Origin: Emiliania huxleyi CCMP1516
Taxonomy: Eukaryota
Direction: 5' to 3'
Length of the DNA stretch: 64,000 nucleotides
Assembly: GCF_000372725.1 (NCBI RefSeq)
Contig: NW_005202428.1
Coordinates: 2,531,791-2,595,790, forward strand
Shown: piece after piece, positions 5,621-63,500 of the stretch
Layout: every line of letters starts with the position of its first letter
Position numbering within the stretch: the first letter of the stretch is position 1
Position numbers and translations under genes: made by a program
The notes under the pieces: generated by a model
Told to the model about the DNA's origin: nothing
Seen by the model: the letters and a program-made list of their open reading frames with translations, nothing else
Database searches by the model: none

Positions 5621-6259
5621 GAGTGGCTCCTCATGCTCCGCTTCGGGTATTTTTCGGGGATACCTGAGAATTCTCGGGTATACCCGGGTTTTACCCGGCC
5701 GGCCACCTGGGTCGGTCCGAGGGTGTTCCAGGAATGATCAGAATGGCGAGGGCCAGAACGTGTTACATGTACATGCACTAGTCAGAACGGACCCCAGTTG
5801 CCGATCCTGCCAACTCAGACTCTAACACTCACACGTCATTTATTTGGGGCCTGGAGCCCCTGCAAAGTGAAGTTTATGGTGGTGCCCCTGCAGACTGATC
5901 TTTATGGGGGTTGCCCTGTTCACGCGCGCGCGAGACGTGCAGACAGGGTTGCCAGGTGAGAGCGAAGTTGTTTTTTGTATTTGTGTATTTGTCCGTTCTC
6001 GACCCTTCGACTGTCCGTGCGTGTGATCACTAACTCTCTTGATTCGCGGGAAGGCGACACGCGCTGATGAGGGATGCTCTGTCATCCTTTGAGACTGGGA
6101 GCGCGCGCAAGCGCACACAACAACGGCTCACGACGCACGCCCACACAAAAGAAAATCCCTAGCACAGGACGGTCGCATCCGAGAGTTGAGAGTTCGAGAC
6201 GTGTCGAGACGTAGCAATCGATCCCGACCGTGATCCCGGACCGTGAGTGAGTGTGGTGA

Positions 6260-17024: not shown

Positions 17025-17359
17025 CGCCGAGCCGCGCCGGAGGGTGGACGCGATGGCGGCGGCGGCGGCCGCGGCGGCGGCAGAGCGTGACGAGTCGGAA
17101 GCGGCGCGGCAGAGGTGGCGGGCACCCAAATTGCGGCGGTTGTCTTTTACTGAAAAAGAATTTTTTCCTTCCACAACACTGGGCACGGGACTGGCGCGCA
17201 CTGGCACTAACACAGGTGCTCCCAGTGTTGTGTGAAAAAAGAAAAAAACACTGGCATCGGCCGAGTCCCAGGCTGGCGGAGGTCGTCTTTCGCCCTGGTA
17301 GGCCACGGTGGCAGCCCCCCCTCGGCCGCCTACTCCCCAGTGGTGCGACTCGCACACGT

Positions 17360-20300
17360 ATGCCGGCCTCCACCGCCGTGCCGTGCTGCCCGAACCGCCA
17401 TGCGCTCAAGCCCTTCGTCACGCCGCACGACCGCTTCAACTGCGACCTCTGCGGCGACGACCAGCCCAAGGGTATCGACATGCGCGGCTGCCGGATCTGC
17501 GAGCACGACGTGTGCGGCAAGTGTTCGCCGCCGGTGGACGTGCCGCTGGACGTGGCGGACGCCGACGCGGAGATCGTCGAGGTGTGTCCGTCGGGCCACC
17601 CGCTCGAGCCGTTTGCGATGGAAGACGAGTTTGGCGAGTGCGACCTCTGCGGGTGTGACCAGCCCGAGGACGCGCCGATGCGCTCGTGCAGAATCTGCGA
17701 CTTCGACGTGTGCCAATCGTGCACCGCGAACCTCGCGCCGCGGCCGCGCGCCGCAGCCGTGCCGCCCGTGCCCGTCGTCGAACGGTCGGATGACATCCGC
17801 AAGCCTGCGATCGACGGCCGCTCTTACCGGTACGTCAAGCTCCCAAACGAGCTGCGGATCGTGCTCGTGTCGGACGGAGAGGCGGACAAGGCGGCGGCCT
17901 CCCTCGACGTTGCCGTGGGACACGCGTGCGACCCTCCGGAGCTGCCAGGCCTCGCCTCCCTCTAATGATTAAGACCTCATCACTAATAATTAATCATGAA
18001 TTAAGCCTCCGGAGCTGCGAGGCCTCGCCTTCATGAATCACTACTGGAACGCATGCTCTTGGCGACTCAGCTGACTCAGCTGGCGATTGTTTGGTCGCGA
18101 GCAGGCCTCGCCCACTTCCTGGAGCACATGCTCTTTCTCGGGACTGCAAAGTACCCGGACGAGGACGACTACACCACCTTCCTCGCGCAGAACGGCGACG
18201 CCTCCAGCTCGCGCGACACCGCCCGGGAGAACGGAAGGATGACTTGACAGGTGGCTCCTAGGCGGCGCCTCCAACGCGTACACCGCCTTCGAAAACACAA
18301 ACTACCACTTCGAGGTGCTGCCCGCGCACCTGCCTGGCGCTCTCGACCGCTTCGCGCAGTTCTTCATCGCGCCGCTCTTCACGGAGAGCGGCGCGAGCCG
18401 CGAGAGGTCCGAGAGGGAGTGCACTTGATGAGCCGGCGGCGGGTGGCTCCTCAGGAGGGCGCGACGGGGCGCGAGCTCAAGGCGATCGAGTCGGAGAATG
18501 CAAAGACGGAGTCTGCTCCGCCGGCTCCTCCTCGCCTCCTTCTCCTGAAGGGGCCTCCCCTCTCTCTCCTAGGCGGACAGCCTCCCGGCCGACACCTGTC
18601 AGCCAATGTCGGGGTGTCTGAAGACGAGTCCTCGATCAACAGGCGAAGAACCTCCAGTCAGACACCTGGCGGCTCGCGCAGCTCACTCGCTGGGCAGCGC
18701 CGCAGCCCGCCGCACTACGCAGCGCTTCACAGCCTCCCTCTCCTCGGACGGGGGCGCCTCCTCCGTGTCTAGGCTGCGAGCCCGGAGCACCCGCAGCACA
18801 AGTTCGGGACAGGCGACACCGATGTGACTCTCCACTCATCACCCCATGCTCGTCACCGTTGCTCGGATGGAGACGCAGGCAACATGGAGACGCTGCGTGA
18901 CCTCGCCGCGCGTCCAGTGACGCTCGACCTGCGGCCAGCTCCCGGCGGCTCCTCTGCTGCCGGCGGCGGCGCGGTGCGCGCGCGGCTCGTGGCGAGCTGC
19001 AGGCCACCCGAGTAGCAGTGGCAGCGATGGAGTGATGGTCCTGATGACAAGAGCCCCACCGCAGTACGCCGCCTTTCCTTGAGGCATGACTCCCCCGCTG
19101 CAGCTTCACAGCTAGAGGTGTGAAGAGACGCTATTCACAGCCTCATTTGAGCATGACTCCCCCGCTGCAGCTTCACAGCTAGAGGTGTGAAGAGACGCTA
19201 TTCACAGCCTCATTTGAGCATGACTCCCCCGCTGCAGGCCGCCGCTGGCCATCCGCGACGCGCTCTTCGCCTTCCACCAGCGGCACTACTCGGCCAACGC
19301 GATGCGGCTCTGCGTGGTCGGCAAGCAGTCTCTCGCCGAGCTCGAGCAGCTCGTGCTGCCGCTCTTCTACCCCATCCCAAACATCAACCGCCCGCCGCCC
19401 GCCTGGCCGGGCGAGCGCTGACCGCCTCCCACGCGGCGAGGCCTGTTGCTGCTGTCGCGAGGTCTGCCCCCCCACCTCGCGTCAGGCGAGCCATATGCCT
19501 CGACCATGCGGCGCGCGCTCGTCAACGTTCCTGTCCGGCAGCTGCGCCTGCTGACGGTCCTGTGGCCGATGCCTCCGATCCGGCAGCTGTGGCGCTCCAA
19601 GCCGCACCGGTACATCTCGCACCTCCTCGGGCACGAGAGCGAGGCTGTGAACAGCGTCTCTTCACACCTCCAGCTGTGAATAGGTACATCTCGCACCTCC
19701 TCGGGCACGAGAGCGAGGGGTCGCTCCCCTCGCTCCTCAAGGGGCTAGCTTCACACCCCAAGCTTCACACCCCTAGCTGTGAATAGGTCGCTCCTCTCGC
19801 TCCTCAAGGGGCTAGCTTCACACCCCAAGCTTCACACCCCTAGCTGTGAATAGGTCGCTCCTCTCGCTCCTCAAGGGGCTAGCTTCACACCCCAAGCTTC
19901 ACACCCCTAGCTGTGAATAGGTCGCTCCTCTCGCTCCTCAAGGGGCTAGCTTCACACCCCAAGCTTCACACCCCTAGCTGTGAATAGGTCGCTCCTCTCG
20001 CTCCTCAAGGGGCTAGCTTCACACCCCAAGCTTCACACCCCTAGCTGTGAATAGGTCGCTCCTCTCGCTCCTCAAGGGGCGCGGCTGGGTCGACTCGCTC
20101 TGCGCCGGCGAGTCCGTCTCCGCCTCCGACTTTGCGATGTTCGAGGTGCAGATGGCCCTGTCGGAGGAGGGGGACGGCAAGGTGGACGAGATTCTGCTCG
20201 AGCTCTTCGCCGCCGTCAACATGCTCCGCGCCCTGCCGCCGGCTCGCTGGGCCGTCGACGAGTGTTGCTACTTGGACGCGACCGCTGATGAGTTGCGCAT

Positions 20301-23653: not shown

Positions 23654-24073
23654 GGCGGGTGTCCCGTGTCCGGTCCCCGTGTGCATTCAAAAACGCTGCC
23701 CGTCCGATGAAGGCTCTGCGGGAGTGGGGGCTCACGCGCCCCCCCCTGTTGTAGTGTTCTCTCTCTGATGAAATAAAGAAGAGTCAAGACGCTGCGCGCT
23801 CAGTCCTCAGACGTCAGAGAGCATGAATGATGCGCGACTTTCCGTGACGTCTCAGCGACCGCGCGCCGGAAAAGCAAAAGGTGTATCCTGAAGCTGAACA
23901 CCTGTGTTGCATGTTAGTGCCAGTGCGCGCCAGTCCCGTGCCCAGTGTCGTGCGAGCGAGGGAGTTTTGTTGTAAAATTCTTGCCGCTTTTCGTGTACGG
24001 CTGTGCGTGTTCGAAAATTCTTTTCGCCGTGACATATAGGAGGAGGGCGCGACATTCCTTGCGCTGGCCGCCA

Positions 24074-29141: not shown

Positions 29142-30690
29142 CGACGCGCCGGCGCATGTGACACATGAACTGTGCGCTGGCGGCGACCGCGGAAGACGGT
29201 TGGAAGGAGAAGGAGGACAGGAGGAGGGGTTGCCGCCGTGGGGGTCGCAGGGGGCTTAGGGTTAGGCATGGGGTGGGCCCTTTTGCAGGCGCGCCGCGCC
29301 GTCGCGCGTGTAAAACGTATTGTCTCTATTGACATGAGGCGCAAAAGGGCCGCAGTTAGCGCGCCCCGGGCGGCCCGGCGGCCGCTGTGCTGAGCGGCGC
29401 TATGTAGCTCTGCGCACGCACGCACGCTCGAACGCACACACGGGAGCCTGGCGTGGGGTATAACAACTAACGTGGGGCGGCCAGGTTTGAGATAGACTCG
29501 GTCGAAAGACCCCAGATTGGCACCCGTGCCTCTCTGGATTGAGAGAGAGATTTTTGAAGACCAACAAGAAATCACGACTGACACAGTGATTTGGGCTCGG
29601 CAGCTTGTTAGCCCTCAGCCGAAGCTGGGGCCGGTCCCGTACGCCGTAGCCAAGAGAGCCCGCGCCGATGAGTTCGACGCGGTCGGGGGGCCTTGCGGAG
29701 AGGCCAGCGAGGTGGATTGATGGGAAGGCGAAACACAGTCCGACCAACGACTGGGACACCAACGCGGTATTATGGGTGGACGCAGCTCGCAGGACGGGCG
29801 GTGACGGTCACACAGGAGCGACACACAGAACCACCCAGACAAGACACTCAGCCAACGTGGCTGGCACACATCCTGAGCAACTTCCCTAGTCACCCGCGGC
29901 CGGACTCCATCCGGCACGCATCAGGGTGGCCCGTCACAACGACCACTGGGATCGCGACTCGCCGCTTGCCTTCCTCCCACTGTGAATTTTGTGTGAGCTC
30001 TCAGAGAGAGATTTTTTGTGAAGAGAGAGATTTAGTCGTCGATCGAGAGAGTACGTAAAGTACAGTTGCCGTCCAGAAGAGATTTCGCCAAGAGAGGGGT
30101 ACTTCCTACCCACAGAAAAAGGGGGATGGAGCGGAGGATCCTCCGGTCCTTTTTCAAGGTGTTTTACGGAGCCTTTTTCCCTGGAGCGGTGAGCCCATAG
30201 GGGGTCTCCCCCCGCCCCTTACGACCTAGCCACCCGCGCGGACCCTGCGTCGCGCGCGCGCACCGCAGTGCGCAGAGAAGGCCCCTCGGGTCGCCCGAGA
30301 ACGCATGCCCCGGTCTGTCCCCCCGCCCCCCCTCGTCCCCCACATTGCACATGTCGTGAGGCGCAGGAGTGCTAAGCACGGGCGAGCCGCTCCCCTCAGT
30401 GCCACCCCTCGCGCCGAGCCACTACGTTTTTCGTACTCTGTGTCTCTGTCACAGGAACAGAGATTTTTTGATTTTATTCTCGTGATGAATTGAGAGAAGA
30501 TGTCAGACGGATGAGACACCGCACGGACGAGCTGAGAGAGTGAGAGAGCGGAGAGTAGTCATAAATAAATAAATAAACAAAAATAAAAATACGGACACCG
30601 CTACTGTGAGATGGGTAAAAACTAAGAGAGTAGTCAGTAGAGAGAGAGAGAACACGAATTGATCGGAGCGGAATACGAAGTCGACAAAAC

Positions 30691-31140
30691 AACTCCTACG
30701 CCTTCGGCAACACCGAAGAGAAGGCCCGCCGCCTAAACATGGGCTGCAAGGCGCGCGGGCAGCCCGGCCAACCCTTCGACCACAAGAACGGCCACGGCTA
30801 CGTCAAGGCGCATCGCGGTTTCTACCACGACGCGATCTTTTGTCAAGCGCAACAACTTCAACCTGCTGCTCCACGAGACGTTCGGCGGCGGCTTCTCGCC
30901 CACCGCCGTTCTCAAGCAGTTCTCAAGCTGCGCCGCCTCGCGCGCAAAGTCGCGCGCGGCAGCGTCGACCGCACGGCCTACTCGCCCAAGTACTCGCTTT
31001 CTTTTATGTCCCACCATGCAGAGCGCATTTCTCTCTCTGAGGCTTGTATCTTTAAGAATTCTCTCTCTGTTGTGCGAGGCGTGAACCGCGCCATTCGCTC
31101 TCACCTGGCAACCCTGTCTGCACGTCTCGCGCGCGCGTGA
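30691..31140 (+). pseudogene. Degenerate 3' fragment of a retroelement-like ORF (possibly the restriction-like endonuclease tail of a non-LTR retrotransposon)
   Basis: AFGNTEE...PFDHKNGHGYV...YHDAIF, then a frameshift to LLLHETFGGGFSP, then LRRLAR...DRTAY...SHHAERIS. Frameshifts, a local duplication and no start. The family assignment is from motif resemblance only. Confidence 0.45.
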
Positions 31141-31402
31141 ACAGGGCTCCAGGCCCCAAATGACGTGTGAGTGTTAGAGTTGTTTGGTATTGCTAAAAAT
31201 CTCTCTCTCTCGAAGTCGAAGATTCCGCGCCGGAGAACTCTCCACCCTGTGCAGCGGCGCGCTCCGCGCGTGTTCTGCAGCGGCGCGCTCCGCGCGTGTC
31301 TGCTACCGACGGCGGCGGCGGTGGCGCTGATCCAGCTGTCGATGACATGCCGGCATTTAGTGTACGGTCGGAGAAGGGACGATCTTCCGTGAAAAAAAAA
31401 CC

Positions 31403-38621: not shown

Positions 38622-38973
38622 GGGGCGCGGCCTGCTGCCTAATGCGGCGGGATTGCAGAAGAATTCATACGACCGTCATCACTCGTTCCCTTGGGTTACC
38701 TGTCCCCCTGATCGTCCTTCCAAAATCCTGCTCGTGCAGGTGGGGACCCTGTCCTCCTCCCCCATCCCTCGTTTGGGTTGTCTGTTTTGTTTTTTTCTTT
38801 TTTTCTTTCTTTCTTTTCCTTGTCGTGCCAGTGTGCTGTGAGAGAGGCTTGTATCTTAAGAATTCTTTTCCCTTGCGCCTTGGGTTGTCTATTTTCTTTC
38901 TTTCTTTTTCTCGTTCCCTTCGCGAATGGGTTTATCTTTGCGGGAGACATAAGAGCCCCCGCCGCTGATATCG

Positions 38974-40559: not shown

Positions 40560-41215
40560 GGACTGGACACCAACGCGGTATGGGTGGACGCTGGACAGAT
40601 GAGCGGGAGGAAAGCGGCGAGTCGCAATTCCAGGGGTCGTTGTGGCGGGCCACCCTGTGTCCAGAAAGGCATGCATGGATTTCTGTGGGGCCTGCTTTTC
40701 TTTTTGGTGTTTGTTAGTGACCAGTGCGCGCCCTCCCGTGCCCAGAAAGAAAGAAAACAGACGATAGGGATGGGAGGACGGCACGCCGCCACCACACAGG
40801 GATTTTAAGGAGAGGGGTGTGATGCGCTAGCCGTCGCCCACCCTTGGGGGCGTCCGCCTCTTCCTATCTCTCTTGCAGTCTCTCGCCGATTCTCGCTGCA
40901 ACCTTCATGCCACCTCGCGGTCGTCCCACTCTCTTCGTTCTCTCTCTTGTCGCTTCTTCCTCTGTCGCGTCGCTCTCCTCTGCCTCGTTCTGCGACGCCG
41001 CCGCCGCCTGCCTCGCCCTGCTCTCGCTTCTTCTCTCGCCTTTCGTCGCAGCTCTGCCCTCCTCGCGGCATATTTTGGCCCCTCGAGTTTATCGAGCTCT
41101 CCTCGAGCAAGGACGACTCTTCTGACGCCCACTCCGATCATTTGCCGCCAAGTCATATCATTGCTCAGGTCCACTCTCTCTTCGAACACTTGTTTGTACT
41201 TCCACAGATGATGCT
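40560..41215. repeat. Copy of a dispersed intergenic repeat family; serves as the empty-site reference for two insertions
   Basis: 40745-40912 matches 56425-56473 plus 56930-57080. 41137-41210 matches 54846-54876 plus 56114-56173. 40565-40655 matches 29754-29980, partly inverted. Confidence 0.75.
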
Positions 41216-42933: not shown

Positions 42934-43152
42934 GGGTTTAGGTTAGGGTTATTAGGGTTAGAGGGTTAGGGTTAGGGTTAGGGTTAGGGTTAGGGTCAGG
43001 GTAGTCTGGTTGTGTCTGTATATGCCAGCGTTGCAGGGTTCTGCGCTGGTATCTGGCCCCACAGCGCCGACGACTAAGACTCAGCCCCACACGCTCTGAC
43101 CTAGGGTTAGGGTTAGGGTTAGGGTTAGGGTTAGGGTTAGGGTTAGGGTTAG
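42934..43152 (+). repeat. Interstitial telomeric (TTAGGG)n tracts, two blocks
   Basis: GGGTTA arrays at ~42934-43001 and 43102-43152, each followed by a related ~95-nt spacer. Confidence 0.92.
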
Positions 43153-43243: not shown

Positions 43244-43730
43244 CCACCAAATGCCGCCTCAGGGCGCCAGGCCGCCAGCCACCTCCTTACACGCGGCCGG
43301 CGCCCTCTCGCGGCAAAAGGGTCGAGCGAGCGGGCAGAGTCGCGATGTCTGCGCACCCGCGTGCCGATGGGCGGCACACGCAACCGAGAGAGGCCCTGTC
43401 ACGCCGCCAGTAGCGTTCTCCGCACTCCCCACGCCACCAATTGCCGCCTCAGGGCGCCAGCCACCTCCTTACACGATTACACGCGGCCGGCGCCCTCTCG
43501 CGGCAAAAGGGTCGAGCGAGCGGGCAGAGTCGCGCGATGTCTGCGCACCCGCGTGCCGATGGGCGGCACACGCAACCGAGAGAGGCCCTGTCACGCCGCC
43601 AGTAGCGTTCCGCACTCCCCACGCCACCAATTGCCGCCTCAGGGCGCCAGCCACCTCTTACACGCGGCCGGCGCCCTCTCGCGGCAAAAGGGTCGAGCGA
43701 GCGGGCAGAGTCGCGATGTCCCTGCGCACC
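43244..43730. repeat. ~190-nt tandem repeat x~2.5
   Basis: Units start CCACCAA(A/T)TGCCGCCTCAGGGCGCCAG at 43244, 43434 and 43624. Confidence 0.9.
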
Positions 43731-47036: not shown

Positions 47037-47590
47037 GTATGTAATGCCCGGAGGTGTCTACTTGCGGCGCGCGTCTTCGGCCTGACAGCTGTACTAACTA
47101 AAAGAAATCTAGTCGGCTGGCGCGCATCGATGGGGCGCACTGGCTTAAAACTAATTTTGACGGGACTTCGCTTGCTTAAAGAAAGAAAGAAAACAAAACA
47201 ACGAGGGATGGGGGAGTGTGTGTGTGTGTGTGGATGGGGGAGGAGGACAGGGAGGGTCCACACCTGCACGAGCAGGATTTTGGAAGAACGATCAGGGGCA
47301 CAGGGGGTTCTCCGATGCTCCTGACAAGGGACACGACAGGCTCGCAGCGCGGTGGCCGGTGCTCGGAGAGAGAGAGATTTATAACCAACAATGGACTCCC
47401 AACTCCACTGGCGGTCTCATCTCAATCTAGCGACCTGCCTCCAGCTTCTCACTGGCAGCCTCTCGCAACCACAGGCACACTGACACAGGGGTGGCAGGCT
47501 TGCTGTCATGAGGTGAGTATGTTTTCTGTGGGTGAGTGATAGATTCGGCCGGTTTTCTCTTCTCCCAGACAGGTCGTCTCGCCGCCCCCG

Positions 47591-50500
47591 ATGCAGGAGG
47601 ACGAGAACGACTACGACCTCTCCCCGCCCGGCTCTCGGCGAGCGTCCCCGGCGCCACCGACGGCCGCGAAAGACCTGCATGGCATCCACGCCAACCTCGC
47701 ACAGCACGCCGACCGAGCAAAGGAGGACGCTCTCAAGGCGGCCCGCGTTCCTCCAAGCTTGCGCGCCCTCTCGCCACACCGCAGCGTCTCCACCCGCCCG
47801 CTCTCGCCCGCTCAGCCTCCTCCGCCGCCGCCGTGGCATCCTCTTCCGCCGCAGGTCCACGCGCAGGCGGTCGCCTTCAAGGAGGCGGTCGTGGACGCTG
47901 GCTCGCGTCACCTTCAGGAGCTGCGTGCGGCGGTCCCCACCACAAAGTCGGAGGTCTTCTCGGTCCCAGCAGAGAGCAGAGCTCCAGCCGCCTCTCTTCA
48001 CACCTCTCGCGTCTGACGAGTCGCACCGTTCGTTCTCAGGTCGTGCGAAACACGGAGCTCAAGTTCCTCGTGCGCGCCCCATGGCTGCTCGGCCTCTTCG
48101 TCCCTCCTCCCGCGTGGCCGTCGGAGCACCTCACCGTGCAGGCGGCGCCTGCTCAGCGATTCTCCATTCGAGATTGACTACTGACTGCACCTCACCGTAC
48201 CAGGCTCCCCGTGTGGCGGCGACCGTACTCGCTTTCGGCGTGCTCTGCGCCATGGCGGCGGGCGGGCTCGTCTCCCTCCTCCTCCTCCTCCTCTGGTCGG
48301 GTGCCATCTCCGTGTCTCGCTGCTGCCGCCGCCGCCGCCGCTGGCCCTGACCGTGCCCCTGCCCCTGCCCCCAGGCGCCATCTTCGTGCCGCTGCTGCTG
48401 CTGCTGCTGCCACTCGCCGCCGCGGCCTACTGCGGCGCCTGGGTGTACATGGGCACTGCACCGCGCTTCGGCGCCGCCCCGGTGCTCAAGGAGAGGGAGC
48501 AGGCCCGCGCCGCGGCGCACGAGAAGAGGGCGACGGGCCGCGGCTCGAGGTGCGGTGAGCGTGCAAGGCAGCGCCTGTTCACAGCTGGGGCGTGTGGCCA
48601 GGTGACGGCGGAGCTCGAGAGGGCGGTCCGGCTCGTGCAGGGGGCAGAGCACGGAGAGGCGATGCCTGGCACACTCCTCTCTTCTTCCCTCCCCTCTCCT
48701 CTCCTCTCCTAACCTCTCCTCTTCTCCCCTCTTCTCGTCCTCTCCCCTCCCCTCCCCTCCTCTCCCCTCCTCTCCCCTCCCCCTCTTCACAGCGGCGCGC
48801 TGTGACCAGGCGCACTCCGACTTTGCGGCGCACGTGGGGAGCGCCACCTCCTTCGCAGTGTACGGCTGCGGCACCCTCACGCCCTCGCGCGTGGAGGCGG
48901 CCTAGCGGCGTCCCCTTCCCATCGCCGCCACGCCTCTCTCTCCAGGCATCCTCTCTCATTGCCATTGTGATTGTGATTGGCTGCTCTTCCTGCTGCTTCA
49001 CGCTCCTCCTCCTCCTCCTCCCCAGGCATCCTCGCAGCGTCGCACGTCGGGGCCCTGCTCGCGCTCGAGCGGTGCGGCGACTCACCCGGCCACAGCCGGC
49101 CGGCCAGGGCCACCTTCCTGGGTCAGCAGCAGTCGCCCTCGCTGCAGGTACGGCCTCAAGTACGACCAGCTGACCACGCTCGCGGGCGTCTCTGCCGGCG
49201 CGGTGATCGTCGCTTGCCTCTCCGTCGGCTTCGAGGCCGAGGACATCTACGATTTGGTGAGCAAGCGAGGTGCCACCACCGCCCACCCGCCTCCCCCGTC
49301 TCCATTCACAGCTGCTGCTCGCAGGTGAGCAAGATGCCATTCCACCGCCTTGCCTACCCGGAGCTGGGCGCTCTGCTGCGCGCCCTCGGCAACACCGTCC
49401 TCACCCTCCTCCAAGTCATCCGCCGCCAAGGCGCGGTGCCGTGGGCTCTGCGCGAGCTCTCCGCCGGCAACGGGCCCGGCATCAACTCTGGCCGCCCAGC
49501 TCCTGGCGAGGAGCGTGCCCCACATGTCTGCGGTGATGGCTCGCGCTCCTCTCCGTCAGGCGCCGAGCTCGAGCGGATGGTCGGCGAGGCGCTCGCGCAG
49601 AGCCCCGCTGGCTCTGCGGACATCACCCTCGCCCAGGTCCGGGCGCAGCGGCGAGCGGGTGGCGAGGGCAGAAGGCTGTGAAGCGGGGTGGGTGTGAGGT
49701 AGGTCAAGGCGCAGTTCGACAAGCGGGTGGTGATCCTCGTCTCCGAGCTGGACACGGGCCGCGAGCGGCAGCTGACCCCCGAGACGGACCCGCGACTCTA
49801 GATGCCACTCTATGCCGAGCAGATGCCATGTGCTCTAGCAAGCACTCCGGAAGACGCGCCTGTTTGTGCTGCACAAGAGATGCCGCGCTCACACTCTCGC
49901 CCGCGTGCATACTAACCACGCCAGGGCCCGGGCGGGCCTTTGCAACCCGGCGGTCCCAACTCCTCTTGATGATCGCACTCTTTGCGAGCAGGACCCGGAC
50001 CTGCCCCTGCGGGTGGCGGTCCGCATGTCGATGGGCGTGCCCGGGCTGATGGAGCCCTTCCGGTACGGCAGGCACGTCTACTGCGACGGCGGCATGTGCA
50101 ACGACTTCCCGATGAACGCGCTGCCAGACGACGGCGGCAGGCTCGGGCTGATGGTGCGGCCAAAGGCGTGGTATATGTACAACTTCGGGTCGCTGCACCG
50201 ACTCAAGCGCGGCGAGCCGTCGAGCACGACGGGCGAGGCCGCCGCCGAGCTGCGAGAGAAGGGCGGGCTCCGTTCTACGAATGAGTGGTTGGTCTTCAGG
50301 CGAGATCATCGCCGAGCTGCAAGAGATGGAGGCGCGGCTGCAGGGGAGCGGCATCTATCCCGTGCGCGACGCGGTCGACTTGGCGATGACGTGCATGCAG
50401 ACGATGATGGACGCGAACCTCGCGCTCCAGATCCGGATGGCCACGGGCGGGGAGGAGGCGGCCGTGGGCGGGAGGGGCGCATGGCCCCGCTCCTGGGGCG

Positions 50501-54876: not shown

Positions 54877-56113
54877 CTGAGGGAGGGTGTAGAGGATGTA
54901 GAGTGTGGAGCGCTGTAGAGCTGTAGAGATGTAGAGCGCTCTGGAGCACTGTAGAGCTGTAGAGCTCTACATCCGCCGCGGGACGAGGCGCGTGCGTTGT
55001 AGAGCGATGTAGAGCGCGATTTTGCTGTATGTATAGAGTTTGTTGTAGAGGCTTTACAGCCAAACCGCCGGGAAGGCAGTGACTCAAAGAGGTCGAGTCG
55101 CACTAATGGGGTGTCTCCGAGCTTACTGGAGCCCCGATGGACGGCCCTGACTATCACTGACACACAGAGAGTCCCTCTGACGGCACACAACACCCTATAA
55201 CTGCGTCATGATTGTTGTATCGCGCGCCTTGCGGGGGGGGGGGGCGCGGAAAAGAGGAACCTCTTAGCGCCCTCGCCACGGTGCTGCAAGCAGCGCCGGG
55301 CGACGACGACTTACCGCCTCCCGGTCCCCCTCGGCACACCTCCGCTGCTCAATGTTTGACGACTCGAACCCGTGAAGCTTCCCCGCGCGCGGGTTACCCC
55401 GCACACGGGTCAGCCTGCCAGCCACAAATCCACGCAAGCGTGGTCCGCGCGCATGGCATACAGGCGTCCGCCAGACAGCGCAGAGGCTAGGCGACCGGGG
55501 GAGGACTAGCTCAAGGGCAACACAGCGTCACCAGCCGTTGGCTGGTGACGCTGTGACCAGCCTGCCATGCGTCGCCGGTGCCGCATTCGTCGCTGTGCTT
55601 CTTTAGCAGGCGGTGGACTGTCGGCTGCGAGGACGGTTGCACATTTGCGCGAGGCGAGGCGAGCATTCAGACGCGCTGCATGCGCCATGACTCGCGCCAG
55701 CACGCGTGCGGGAGCTCCTGGCTGAGCGTTGAGTCCAGGCGAGTTGCGCTGGCCACGATCGCTACGCCAAGCCGAGCTGACGCGCCGAGGCGCCGGCCAG
55801 TCGCAGCCGTGAGGCATGCCACAGCAGCAGAGGCACCTGCCACCCATTGGGCGGGCAGACAGAAGGCCAGGGCAGCACTGCCACTGGCAAGTGCAACGCG
55901 CCTCATGTCGGAGAGCGACCGTGCCTCGTTCCTATCGCCGCTTACGATGTAGAGTTTGTTGTAGAGATTTCACGTTGTAGAGCGCCTGTACATCGCTCTA
56001 CAACGCACGCGCCTCGTCACGCGGCGGATGTAGAGCTCTACAGCTCTACAGCGCTCTCCAGCTCTACAGTTCTACAGCGCTCTACACTCTACATCCTCTA
56101 CACCCTCCCTCAG
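54877..56113. mobile_element. Non-autonomous DNA transposon, long (~170 bp, imperfect) TIRs starting CTGAGGGAGGGTGTAGAG, 8-bp TSD CAAGTCAT
   Basis: TSD at 54869-54876 and 56114-56121. TGTAGAG/CTCTACA subterminal arrays. An uninterrupted single CAAGTCAT site exists in the paralogous repeat near 41148. Confidence 0.92.
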
Positions 56114-56473
56114 CAAGTCATATCGTTGCTCAGGTCCACTCTCTCTTCGAACACTTGTACCTCCACCGATGATGTTGGCGCTGGGGTCCCCTTCGGGTGC
56201 ATCGTGACAGCTGACGACGGGATTACCACAGCGCACAGGTGTTTCGTCCTCCTCGGGGTCGTCTTCCCCGGCTTCCCCCGGTTCGGCTCTATACGTTCAG
56301 CACGTTCAGCGTGGCTCACCCTCCATGCCGTGAATAGGCGCTAAGAAAGAACGACAAGGCTTTAGAAATTCTTTTTATCACAACGAAGTAATGAGCGCGC
56401 TCTAGCGCGCGCCAGCAGTAAAGAAAGAAGAAAGAAAACAGACAACCCAAGGGAGGGATGGGAGGACGGCACG

Positions 56474-56917
56474 TTGGGCTCAACGAGGTTTTCCGGAAAA
56501 CAAAAAGGAAAACAGAGGGTCCCCAGCACTTTGCGTTTCCGGAAATTTCCAGGGAAAACAGAGGGTGTTTGGTGCTCCATTCTAGAAACTCGCGAGTTTC
56601 CCTGAGTCTGAGAGCTGGTCTGGCGTCTGGGGCAAAATCTGAGGCAAAATTGAGGAAATCGACAAAATACCCAGGCGGTCGCAGGGTAATTTCCAGGTAT
56701 ACACGGTTTCTCCGCGAAATTCCCGGCATTTTGCCGATTTGGCCTAAAATTTGGCTGATTTTGGGCCCAAACCAGCCTCAGACTCGGCTCAGAGCCAAAA
56801 ATTTGACGATTTCCACGGAGTTTTCCCGGGAAAATAGAGAGGAAAAGAGAGGGTGCTGTAGAGAAAAAAGGAAAGGAAAACAGACGGGGTGCGAGAGGCA
56901 AACCTCGTTGAGCCCAA
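56474..56917. mobile_element. AT-rich MITE, 18-bp perfect TIR TTGGGCTCAACGAGGTTT
   Basis: Partner AAACCTCGTTGAGCCCAA at 56900-56917. GGAAA/TTTCC-rich interior. It interrupts a repeat that is contiguous near 40780. No clean TSD. Confidence 0.78.
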
Positions 56918-57216
56918 ACAAACAAACGGGACGCCGCCACCGCGCCACCACACAGGCAGGGATTTTAAGGAGAGGAGTGTGGTGCTAGCCGTCGCCCACC
57001 CTAATAACCCTTGGGCGTCTGCCTCTTTCTATCTCTCTTCGCAGTCCCTAGGCGATCCTCGCTGCAACCTTCATGCCGCCAAGTCAGCCTCTCTGCGCGC
57101 CTAGGAAATTCTCTTCGTTCGCCCCTCTTTGTGGACCAGCCTCTCTCTCGCTCGCTCGTGCCAGCCTCCTCTCGCCCCTCGCCCTACCTAGTTCGCGAGT
57201 GCTTCCGAGAGTTCTT

Positions 57217-60501: not shown

Positions 60502-63500
60502 ATGCGCGGGGCCGCGATCAGGGCACTCGTCGCAGCAGCGACGACATTCCCTGTCGGCGCCGGCTCGCGCGCTTTGAAGGACAAGGATGATGCCGCCCTT
60601 TTGCCGCTGCCCGCCTCTCCTTCTCCTCAGGCACCTCCTACACTGAGCTGCGCATCGGTCTCGTCCTGCGCGGGTCTCGATCTCCTGGCTGGAGCGGTCC
60701 TCTGCACCGACCGAGGAGAGTGCCGGCCACAGGCTGAGGCCGACTGCGGCAGCGTCTGCTTCGTCCCGGCGGCCTGGCCCATCGCCGAGAGCGGCAGCGG
60801 CGACGCCGGAGCGGAGCTTGCGCCTCGGCCAGCGGCCGAGGCAGCGGAGCCCGCCGAACCCGCGGAACTGGCCGGCGCGGCGGCGGAGTCGGGCGGGGCG
60901 GAAACGAGCGCAGAGGCAGCGGACGCAGAAGCAGAGGCGGTGACGGTGGTGGAGGCGGTGGAGGCGGTGGAGGCGGAGGCGGTGGAGGCGGAGGCGGTGG
61001 AGGTGGACCCGGCGGAAGAGCCTGGGCCCGGCGAGGCGCACGGCGAGGCGGAGAGCGAGCCGCAAGAGGAGGCGCAGCCGCTGCCGCTGCCGCAGCAGCA
61101 GCAGCAGCAAGAGCATCACGCGTCCGAGGCGCAACGGCACTCGCCGGGCCTCGGCGAGAAGGTGTGCAAGGCGAAGGCGGGCCTGGTGCACTGCTGGCTC
61201 GCCGGCTGCGTGGCCGAGTGCTCCAGCGAGATCGCGCCCGCCCTCCTCCTCCTCCTCATCGTCGGGATGTCTGCGCACACCTTTGGCTCGCTGCTGTCCG
61301 GGCTGGGCTTCCCCGCCATCACCACCTTCCTCTTCTTCGGCGTGGTCGCCGGTCCGTACGGCACAAACATCGTGTCCGCCGAGGAGGCGGCCAAGCTCAC
61401 CTGGCTCAACAATGTTGCCCTCGGCTTCATCGGCCTGTCTGCGGGCGGCAAGCTCCACCTCAACGAGGTGCGCGAGAACCTGTCCGCCGCGCTGAGCGTG
61501 CTCGGCGGGCTGGTGACCGTCACCTACTTCGGCTCCATCACGACGACGCTGCTCTTCGGACACATCGTACATCTCGCACCTCCTCGGGCAGGAGAGCGAG
61601 GCTGTGAACAGCGTCTCTTCACACCTCTAGCTGTGAATAGTTCCTCCCCTTCCTCGTCGACGTCACGCTCAACGATAAGATGTCCGCCGCGCTGCTCATC
61701 GCCTGCCTCGCGGTCGCTCGCTCGCCCTCCTCCGCCATCGCAATCATCGAGGAGCTGCACGCCAAGGGCCCCTTCACCACCACCGTCCTCACCGTCACCG
61801 TGCTGATGGACGTGGTCGTCGTGCTGCTCTTCGCGCTCACGCAGCTGGTGGTGAGCTCGCTGCAGGAGGGCGGCGCGGGCGAGGGCGGCGCGGAGGGCGG
61901 CGGAAGCCTGCTGCTCGAGTTCGTGCAGCAGACCCTCCTCTCGGTCGTGCTCGGTTGCCTGATCGGCTTCTCGATGCCGCTCATCTACGCCTGCCCCATC
62001 CCCGAGCCAGACCGGCGAGAGAAGGGGTGGCGCGGTGCGCTGGCCTCCTCCCTCTGCGCCTGGTCGCAGCCTGCCTCTCGAGCCCCCCCTACCTTCTCGC
62101 AGGCGCGCTGGCCTCCTTTTTCCGCGCCACCGTCGGGGTGCTCCTCTCGGTGGCGCAACGGACAACCCTCCTCTTCACCGGGTTCGCCCTCTTCTTCGAC
62201 GAGCGGTACGAGGAGGTGACGGCGGGACGCGCGGCGATCAACCCGCTCGTCTGCTGCATGGTTGCCGGCTTCGTGACGAGCAACCTGACCGCGGGGGGCC
62301 ACGCCTTCCACGAGGCGGTGACGGACCTGTCTGGCCCGATCTACCTCCTCTTCTTCACCTTCACGGGCATCACGATGGACCTGGGCGTGCTGTGGCGCAA
62401 CCGCTCCGCCTGCATCCTCCTCTTCGGCTCGCGCTCCGTCTTCATCGTCCTCGGCTCGCGGATTGGCGGCCAGCTCGGCGGCCAGCCAGCCGAGTACTAC
62501 AACCGCTACTGGATGTCCTTTCTCACTCAGGCGGGCGTCACGCTCGGCCTCGCCCAGTCGGTCGCCCCCCACTTTGTGTGGGGCCCCGACTTTGCGGCTT
62601 GCATCGTCGCGCTGGTCGTGTGCAACCAGATCGTCGGCCCGCCCCTCTTCAAGCACGTCATCAAGCTCGTCAACGAGTCCAACATCGGGTACAACCCCGC
62701 GGAGGTGCCAAAGACTGGCTACGGCCCGCGGATCCGCAACCTCGGCAACGTCAAGAACTCGTCGCTCGGCAAGCCCAAGCCGCGCGGCGTGCTCTGCATC
62801 AAGAGCGCCGACTCGCCCCTCGGCGAGGCGATCACGCGCCGGCTGCGCGAGCTGCAGTGGGAGGTGCTCGTCGCCGACGAGACCTTCTCGCTCAACACGA
62901 GCGTGGACGAGTCGGAGCAGCTGGAGAAGCGCTCGCGCTACAACATCATCGGCCTGCCCGACGAGCTGCAGCGCGAGCTCCTCTCCCGCGAGGGGGCGCA
63001 GGGCATGCCGATCAAGCCGTGGGAGAAGCTCGTCGCCCACCGCTCCATGCCAACCATGCCAAAGCTCCCAATCTCCGAGAGAGACCTCTGGGGCGGCTCC
63101 CCCGTCGTCGCCACGCCGCGGCGCCGCGCCGACGAGGCCCTCCCGTCCGGCTGGGAGCAGCGTCTCTTCACACCTCGCCTGTGGACAGGCGCAGCCCCGA
63201 CCAGGCCCTCGCCGCCCTCCACTCGCGCGGCTTCGGCTCCAACCCGCTCGAGCGGTCCCGGATGCTCGCCTCGAAGCAGCTCGGCTCCGACGCCGTCAGC
63301 TTCGCCGCCGCTGCGGCGCGCACGCCCTTGCCCCGGCTCGACCTCGGTCGCTTCGACGTCGAGTCCGGCGAGGGGCAGGTGCTCGGCTCGCGGCGGACGC
63401 AGATGCCGCAGCGCAGCGGCTCGGTGCGGCGGGCGAGAGCTTCCCTTCAGCGTTCCGGCGCGTCTTCACGGCTGCACGTGTGAGCAGGTGCGGCTGACAG

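What the first reader, a model, noticed from the sequence alone, without database searches (positions are those of the whole stretch)
61567..61640. Apparent spliceosomal intron transposition with a traceable donor: an insulysin intron copied exactly into an antiporter gene 42 kb away
Seen: 19610-19683 (GTACATCTCGCACCTCCTCGGGCACGAGAGCGAGGCTGTGAACAGCGTCTCTTCACACCTCCAGCTGTGAATAG) and 61567-61640 are both 74 nt, differ at 2 positions and match exactly from GT to AG. Similarity does not extend into the flanking exons, and removing each restores the reading frame. The first ~34 nt are insulysin coding sequence ([11 protein letters not shown], the conserved M16A HLxGHE region), duplicated from the exon at 19684, so the direction is insulysin to antiporter. 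Each copy has one private change: the antiporter copy differs from the insulysin exon (GCAG vs GCAC), and the insulysin copy differs from the other cassette copies (CTCCAG vs CTCTAG). There is no TSD or TIR, only ACATC microhomology at the target (CACATC|GTACATC). Inference: precise whole-intron copying fits reverse splicing plus reverse transcription, or RNA/DNA-templated break repair. Clear natural cases with an identifiable donor gene are rare, and this lacks the TIR/TSD hallmarks described for DNA-transposon-derived Introners.
Basis: partly seen in the sequence, partly recalled or inferred. Interest (0 to 1): 0.93.

Follow-up and report, generated by a model that had tools for sequence, protein, structure and literature searches.

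The report
Traceable intron copying in a coccolithophore
In the alga Emiliania huxleyi, a spliced 74-base intron in an antiporter gene is an end-to-end copy of an intron of the insulysin gene and still carries insulysin coding sequence; it belongs to a large family of repeated introns that likely spread by way of excised intron RNA, which gives a rare donor-to-recipient record of how new introns arise.

Summary
Confirmed. 61567-61640 matches 19610-19683 at 72 of 74 bases, GT to AG, with no shared base across either junction. An RNA contig skips it exactly; 4 of 4 DNA runs hold it; a paralog and relatives read through the site. Its first 35 bases are single-copy insulysin exon, so the direction holds. 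It is not a one-off: the 3' 40 bases are a high-copy cassette, seen at 95 sites in metagenome contigs. In 68 of 84 usable sites the intron is a copy of the start of its own downstream exon plus the cassette; 0 of 83 copy the upstream exon. These exon tags expose a second whole-intron copy (phosphodiesterase gene to another gene, 67 of 69 bases) and several 5'-truncated copies. Best reading (0.55, inferred): excised intron RNA is joined 3' end first to DNA; complete events give clean copies, incomplete ones the duplication type. DNA capture plus selection remains (0.3). The family is probably among the catalogued E. huxleyi introners of unknown mechanism; this architecture was not found in ten literature searches, nor on other DNA in this scan.

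The parts
61567..61640 (+). Recipient intron (74 nt, GT-AG) in a cation/proton antiporter gene; whole copy of the insulysin intron
   Evidence: (RNA contig of X10 skips 74, GT..AG, both=0)
61567..61601 (+). Exon tag: insulysin coding sequence ([11 protein letters not shown] region), 34 of 35 identical to 19684-19718; single-copy depth
   Evidence: (contigs 61461-61621 at depth 70 in X9 and 7 in X2)
61601..61640 (+). Family cassette, 40 nt, with 11-nt direct terminal repeats, ending at the 3' splice AG; high copy
   Evidence: (summed depth 48611 against 64-97 in plain bins of X9)
61168..61566 (+). Antiporter exon part upstream of the intron (Na_H_Exchanger-like, E 9.7e-05, below the curated cut-off)
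61641..62034 (+). Antiporter exon downstream; joins in frame with no gain or loss of codons against homologs
19610..19683 (+). Donor intron in the insulysin (M16) gene: copy of the next 35 exon bases plus cassette
   Evidence: (mRNA contigs of X11 and X12 hold the 35-mer once)
19684..19719 (+). 36-nt insulysin exon, source of the tag
19720..20054 (+). Five tandem 67-nt units (exon copy plus cassette variant), absent from the mRNA
   Evidence: loose end of the X12 contig reads into the exon after the array
19105..19211 (-). Two cassette units antisense to insulysin, within an intron, with their own target duplication; 3' end lacks the full CAG
63121..63188 (+). Older family intron (68 nt, GC-AG) in the same antiporter gene, with diverged copy of its own downstream exon; spliced
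   Evidence: joint in X10 and X13; duplication score 31
62035..62102 (+). 68-nt GT-AG antiporter intron whose start copies the downstream exon start but has no recognisable cassette; spliced
   Evidence: X13; score 28

Best explanation
The antiporter intron is a complete copy of the insulysin intron, likely made from the excised intron RNA, which would be joined by its free 3' AG end to a new site in the DNA and copied there. Shown: the copy, its direction, its splicing, the exact ends, and the family pattern (fixed 3' end at the AG, locus-specific 5' half, duplication always of downstream sequence, tails inherited from other genes' introns). Inferred: usually only the 3' part of the donor intron is copied, and the upstream DNA end is extended over the next 13-44 bases before the two are joined, which gives exon copy + cassette + exon; such an insert survives in an exon when the copied exon starts with GT, GC or GA. 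Now and then the whole intron goes in with blunt ends and brings its own 5' splice site, as here and at L050. The catalyst is untested: reverse splicing into single-stranded DNA (first step only, or both steps) is my first choice, target-primed reverse transcription by a retroelement enzyme the second; the two predict the same junctions.
For: Both junctions fall exactly on splice sites with 0 shared bases, in a recipient whose homologs align without a gap. Of 37 registers that remove one donor unit, the copy has the GT-AG one. Second whole copy L059 to L050, 67 of 69 identical, spliced form in a transcript-derived protein P0033 and read-through form in P0045. 83 of 84 sites end in CAG or TAG; 68 of 84 duplicate the downstream exon, 0 of 83 the upstream one; the duplication starts at the first exon base in 57 of 68. 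16 of 4460 site pairs share at least 8 nt of tail upstream of the cassette against 1 of 8920 in a shifted register; in L009 to L080/L093 and L044 to L096 the tail is exon sequence of one member. At L067 the cassette lies antisense to a WD40 exon, where the host does not need its AG, and still ends at CAG. The two whole copies follow a C, whereas 53 of 60 duplication-type sites follow a G. Analogy: partial reverse splicing of a linear group II intron gives precise or 5'-truncated, microhomology-joined 5' junctions (PMC3280974, passages); reverse splicing into R-loop DNA was proposed for introners (PMC4540971; PMC10996645).
Against: No RNA intermediate or enzyme was observed. Selection alone favours exact ends in coding sequence. 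The donor family forms tandem arrays (9 of 95 sites multi-unit; 19720-20054) whose unit border is AG|GT, so DNA could supply the same unit. Conservation drops sharply about 10 nt upstream of the core (71 of 95 at -10, 28 of 95 at -11), more like an element with a defined 5' edge than random truncation. Of the 16 tail-sharing pairs, one is the same locus twice, one is counted twice and three share cassette-internal sequence. Antisense copies exist (7 of 84 by codon score, 1 confirmed by Pfam), against strict coupling to the host transcript. Two copies outside sense exons (19105-19144, L081) stop 2-3 nt short of the AG. The donor has a second usable register, GC-AG at 19644-19717, giving the same mRNA, so the RNA actually excised is not fixed by these data. 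The group II paper reports no downstream-exon duplications in the passages read ('duplicat' 0 hits). The intron folds no better than shuffles (z -1.0 and -0.7).
Confidence: 0.55

Rival explanations
1. DNA-level copying: during break repair or replication the polymerase switches to a cassette-bearing locus and back (giving exon copy + cassette + exon), or one excised repeat unit is captured at a break; splicing selection keeps only events with exact ends.
For: Direct repeats and arrays flank most copies; microhomology at some 5' junctions, such as 9 nt at L079 and 3 nt at L050 and L033; copies on either strand; donor and recipient are 42 kb apart; L033 shares 6 nt upstream of the unit with the L106 array. 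A one-unit circle would open at the right place about 1 time in 74 (inference).
Against: 0 shared bases at both antiporter junctions; the strict downstream-only duplication (68 of 84 against 0 of 83); exact CAG end at antisense L067; 2 whole copies with exact ends among 84 sites is many for random break points (inference).
Confidence: 0.3
2. Classical intron transposition: the lariat reverse-splices into antiporter mRNA, which is reverse-transcribed and recombined into the gene; the duplication-type introns arise by a separate process.
For: Predicts exactly the clean, sense, TSD-free insertion seen at 61567 and L050; the route is described in PMC3443670 (passages) and PMC3879977.
Against: Needs two mechanisms for one family; partial tails form a continuum with whole copies; cannot place antisense copies; neighbouring introns of the gene are retained, and the rate paradox is noted.
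Confidence: 0.09
3. The 40-nt cassette is a non-autonomous element with its own defined ends, moved by an unknown transposase that makes long target duplications and sometimes carries upstream flank.
For: Sharp 5' edge; 11-nt terminal direct repeats; both orientations.
Against: No TIR; duplication length 13-44 nt, or none; carried flank stops exactly at the donor GT in two cases; no mobilising gene was looked for or found.
Confidence: 0.05
4. Assembly artefact or chance.
For: High-copy repeats can cause misjoins; only assembled contigs, no raw or long reads, could be laid.
Against: The 161-nt contig joining antiporter exon to the insulysin tag is in 4 of 4 DNA runs of four studies, in L065 and in four read-through proteins; the spliced joint is in RNA. 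One DNA run may be the window's own source.
Confidence: 0.01

Closest known systems
Emiliania huxleyi introner families in Gozashti et al. 2022 (PMC9860276, Table 5/6 rows) and 2025 (PMC12130899, dataset rows fam11, fam24)
   Same: Same species; listed lengths 37 and 70 match the cassette and the whole intron (median 69); mixed GT/GC donors; fam24 is noted as '10bp terminal direct repeats', 'co-opt 5' carry 3'', class Unknown.
   Different: No sequences were in the files I could search, so identity is inferred.
Near-identical intron pairs in Oikopleura and Mycosphaerella (intron transposition; 14 events in the table of PMC3443670)
   Same: Whole-intron copies at unrelated positions, ascribed to reverse splicing.
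   Different: Here direction is fixed by an exon tag, recipients are other genes (the four Oikopleura pairs lie within one gene per PMC3879977), and whole copies sit in a family that also shows truncated copies.
Micromonas IEs and fungal ILEs without TSD/TIR (PMC4540971, PMC3879977)
   Same: Short, non-coding, repeated, spliced, mostly sense.
   Different: Those are alike end to end and reported only on the coding strand; here the 5' half is replaced at most insertions and some copies are antisense.
DNA-transposon-derived introners that co-opt a splice site from a 3-9-bp TSD (PMC9860276)
   Same: Element carries the 3' splice site; the 5' site comes from duplicated target.
   Different: No TIR; duplication is 13-44 nt and variable; whole copies have none.
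Intron gain by tandem genomic duplication (PMC3443670)
   Same: Duplicated exon supplies a splice site.
   Different: A shared cassette between the copies supplies the 3' site; only antisense cases such as L067 take both sites from the duplication.
Linear group II intron retrohoming (PMC3280974)
   Same: 3'-end-first integration with precise or 5'-truncated upstream junctions.
   Different: Self-splicing ribozyme with its own reverse transcriptase; no Rfam match here.

Membership tests
Introner (broad sense) | Similar introns at many non-homologous sites | tested here: met
   108 loci, 95 distinct sites; several-hundred-fold depth over the cassette
Introner (broad sense) | Removed by splicing | tested here: met
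   for four family introns; the rest not tested
Introner (broad sense) | Absent at the same position in homologous genes | tested here: met
   Open frames across the site in paralog P0002 and relatives P0004-P0006, and P0028-P0030 for the donor; some of these records could be transcripts
Introner (broad sense) | Presence/absence polymorphism within the species | tested here: inconclusive
   No intron-less allele in 4 of 4 DNA runs; contigs drop rare variants
E. huxleyi introner families of Gozashti 2022/2025 | Sequence identity with the published consensus | not testable with these tools
   Motif searches of the held supplements gave 0 hits; one file was cut, two were not searched
MITE / DNA-transposon-derived introner | Terminal inverted repeats | tested here: not met
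   Ends are direct repeats; only internal 4-6-bp hairpins
MITE / DNA-transposon-derived introner | Short target duplication of fixed length | tested here: not met
   13-44 nt in 60 sites; none at the recipient
ILE / IE type without TSD and TIR | End-to-end likeness and no target duplication | tested here: not met
   True of 2 pairs only; 68 of 84 sites carry a duplication
ILE / IE type without TSD and TIR | Sense strand only | tested here: not met
   55 sense, 7 antisense, 22 unclear of 84 by codon score without held-out control; L067 antisense by Pfam
ILE / IE type without TSD and TIR | Stable predicted RNA structure | tested here: not met
   z -1.01, -0.74; cassette alone -1.76
SINE-like, target-primed insertion (features recalled) | Fixed 3' end, variable 5' end, variable target duplication | tested here: met
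SINE-like, target-primed insertion (features recalled) | 3' tail or end shared with an autonomous non-LTR partner | not testable with these tools
   No genome held; no poly(A) tail in the sequence
Helitron (features recalled) | No target duplication, CTRR 3' end | tested here: not met
   Ends in GAAYAG with long duplications

The most novel reading that the evidence does not exclude
E. huxleyi carries a chain-letter intron family spread by the spliceosome itself reverse-splicing excised introns into DNA: both steps give exact whole-intron copies such as this one, the first step alone gives the exon-duplication type, and the exon tags let hundreds of donor-to-recipient events be read from one genome. 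Many of its ordinary 64-75-nt introns would be decayed products of the same process.
Probability: 0.3. Interest if true: 0.95.

Novelty: new variant of a known kind. Interest (0 to 1): 0.76.

Why it matters
How new spliceosomal introns arise, and whether excised introns can move through RNA, is an old open question, because donors are rarely identifiable and copies in a family cannot be ordered. [quoted passage not shown] One genome-wide comparison of unselected copies can tell RNA-defined from DNA-defined ends, in a cultured species with several genome assemblies.

Tried and rejected
No whole genome was held, so no genome-wide intron comparison. Cassette pattern in viral contigs: 0. Rfam over 61400-61800: 0. 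Folding: no unusual stability. ACATC as a priming microhomology: rejected as weak. Position 62 as a private change: rejected; it differs the same way (donor C, recipient T) in both whole-copy pairs and lies in a CAG context, and CHG methylation is reported for the species (10.1101/2024.05.26.595999, passages), so recurrent C-to-T change is possible but untested. First clustering of sites (92 sites) merged unrelated loci and was replaced (95 sites; 11 dropped for short flanks, leaving 84; at least two pairs among the 95 are still one locus). For 12 of the 16 sites without local duplication no donor was found among the loci and no intron start could be fixed with confidence; some look like old, diverged duplications. 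L033 from L106 is left as ambiguous. No third copy of the insulysin intron among loose ends in X6 and X1 or in 108 loci. In X1 no contig for the cassette-to-second-tag junction of the donor was listed; a hole proves nothing. The X13 RNA-library contig holds the antiporter intron: retention or DNA, not resolved. Earlier findings: none by sequence or place; one loosely related note by words.

Full report
Observation. The two stretches 19610-19683 and 61567-61640 are 74 nt, begin GT, end AG and differ at positions 25 and 62. Neither junction shares a base with the donor flanks or the intron ends. The first 35 nt match the exon at 19684-19718 at 34 of 35 positions; a 21-mer from them occurs three times in the window against 0.00 expected in 100 shuffles.

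Genes and organism. The recipient exon gives a weak Na_H_Exchanger match and the donor exons M16 peptidase matches. A homolog of the donor exon at 100% identity over 65% of the query is named insulin-degrading metalloproteinase of Emiliania huxleyi, and a 77% paralog of the antiporter clusters with a cation/H+ exchanger of that species, so I take the species to be E. huxleyi. The spliced recipient reads LLFGHI-FLPFL and aligns without a gap to six homologs. The tag encodes the conserved [11 protein letters not shown], and three relatives at 83-84% identity read through both cassette positions of the donor, so the donor intron is itself a recent gain and the direction is insulysin to antiporter.

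Read evidence (contigs only, no raw or long reads). I laid 8 of the 16 runs listed. On the antiporter, the RNA contig of X10 skips 61567-61640 with no ambiguity; X13 has a contig that holds the intron; DNA runs X2 and X9 hold it and show no intron-less joint. On the insulysin side, RNA contigs of X11 and X12 hold the tag once and run on into the next exon; DNA runs X6 and X1 also hold the antiporter-exon-to-tag contig, and no third copy appeared. So 4 of 4 DNA runs carry the copy. Because the tag is duplicated in the donor, 37 registers give the same mRNA, and two are usable splice pairs: GT-AG at 19610-19683 and GC-AG at 19644-19717. The recipient has the first.

The family. Summed depth over the 3' 40 nt is 48611 in X9 against 64-97 in plain bins, and 6858 against about 7-15 in X2 (not a copy number). 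A 27-nt core gave 108 metagenome loci, 113 sites, 95 distinct, 84 with enough flank. Of the 84, 77 end in CAG and 6 in TAG; the next two bases are GT 36, GC 36, GA 8, GG 2, TT 1 (the antiporter), CC 1. In 68 of 84 the 5' half of the intron matches the start of its own downstream exon above the 99th percentile of 6972 mismatched pairs; 0 of 83 match the upstream exon; the match starts at the first exon base in 57 of 68. In 60 clear cases the duplication is 13-44 nt (median 27), the intron 59-78 nt (median 69), and the base before it is G in 53. The core pattern cannot see copies cut inside it.

More traceable copies. L050 holds the 69-nt intron of L059 end to end, 67 of 69 identical, with no local duplication beyond GTG; in L059 the tag is a copy of the next exon, which has a weak phosphodiesterase match. 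A transcript-derived protein reads across the site (P0033) and another assembly reads into the tag (P0045). Truncated copies also occur: 16 of 4460 site pairs share at least 8 nt upstream of the cassette against 1 of 8920 in a shifted register; one pair is one locus twice, one is double-counted and three share cassette-internal sequence, but in L009 to L080/L093 and L044 to L096 the shared tail is exon sequence of one member. L033/L106 and L079/L091 are further, less clean cases. By a codon score trained on window exons, with no held-out control, 55 of 84 sites are sense, 7 antisense, 22 unclear; L067 is antisense in a WD40 gene, takes both splice sites from its duplication and still ends at CAG. 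The antisense pair at 19105-19211 and L081 stop 2-3 nt short of the AG.

Mechanism. Shown: a fixed 3' end at the acceptor, a replaceable 5' half, downstream-only duplication, inherited tails, and two complete copies with splice-exact ends. Inferred: the template is excised intron RNA joined 3' end first. If only its 3' end is joined to a DNA strand, the free upstream end can be extended over the next bases and then joined to the shortened intron, giving exon copy + cassette + exon; if joining is complete, the insertion is clean. Reverse splicing into R-loop DNA (proposed in PMC4540971, passages; favoured in PMC10996645, passages, which also says the spliceosome is not known to do this) fits, as does target-primed reverse transcription (features recalled). 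Partial reverse splicing of a linear group II intron gives precise or 5'-truncated junctions (PMC3280974, passages), but duplications are not mentioned there. I give this class 0.55 (about 0.3 reverse splicing, 0.25 target-primed). DNA template switching or capture of one repeat unit, filtered by selection, gets 0.3: arrays exist (9 of 95 sites), both strands are used, and conservation ends sharply 10 nt upstream of the core. Classical mRNA reverse splicing gets 0.09, a defined mini-element 0.05, artefact 0.01.

Comparison with what is known. Supplement rows of PMC9860276 list 653 introners in five families for E. huxleyi, average lengths 37 or 70, TSDs '?' or 'N'; rows of PMC12130899 list three families per assembly, two of class Unknown, one noted for 10-bp terminal direct repeats. 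These probably include this family, but no sequences were in the files searched (one file cut, files 13 and 14 not searched), and neither main text names the species. A 2012 review tabulates 14 intron transposition events in Mycosphaerella and Oikopleura (PMC3443670, passages); the four Oikopleura pairs lie within one gene (PMC3879977, passages). Ten searches (listings only except for the papers named) showed no account of the exon-duplication architecture or of exon-tag tracing; subscription journals are largely missing from that library.

Verdict. New variant of a known kind; interest 0.76, mainly because the tags make the RNA-versus-DNA question directly testable.

Noticed in passing
window 62035-62102, 63424-63487, 19411-19485: Spliced 64-75-nt introns whose first bases copy the start of the next exon but with a decayed or absent cassette (scores 28, 18, 18); may be older products of the same process.
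   Followed up: partly
L021, L060, L079, L082, L085, L092 and two more: 8 of 84 family sites imply GA-AG introns, a non-canonical donor; splicing not tested.
   Followed up: no
window 19720-20054: Five-unit array next to a 36-nt exon; the X1 contig shows a one-base allele difference in the first unit.
   Followed up: partly
window 47990-48010: Partial cassette match inside what looks like an intron end.
   Followed up: no
window 54877-55014 and 55986-56113: 138-nt inverted repeat pair at 88% identity about 1 kb apart, with related pieces at 38699-38907, 40747-41213, 47232-47304 and 56114-57080; looks like a TIR-type element family.
   Followed up: no
window 5819-5966 and 31094-31180; 17172-17212 and 23912-23952; 29749-29983 and 40561-40657: Dispersed short repeats, 41-63 nt at 86-100% identity.
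   Followed up: no
window 42941-43152 and 43244-43715: Internal TTAGGG tracts beside a 190-nt repeat of 2.5 copies.
   Followed up: no
window about 17400-17730: Cysteine-rich zinc-finger-like frame just upstream of the insulysin M16 domain; the P0031 name mentions a ZZ-type domain.
   Followed up: no
L041, L008, L019, L056 (upstream of the core): Fillers made of the cassette's own 3' part, suggesting a 29-nt periodic ancestor or cassette-on-cassette copying.
   Followed up: no
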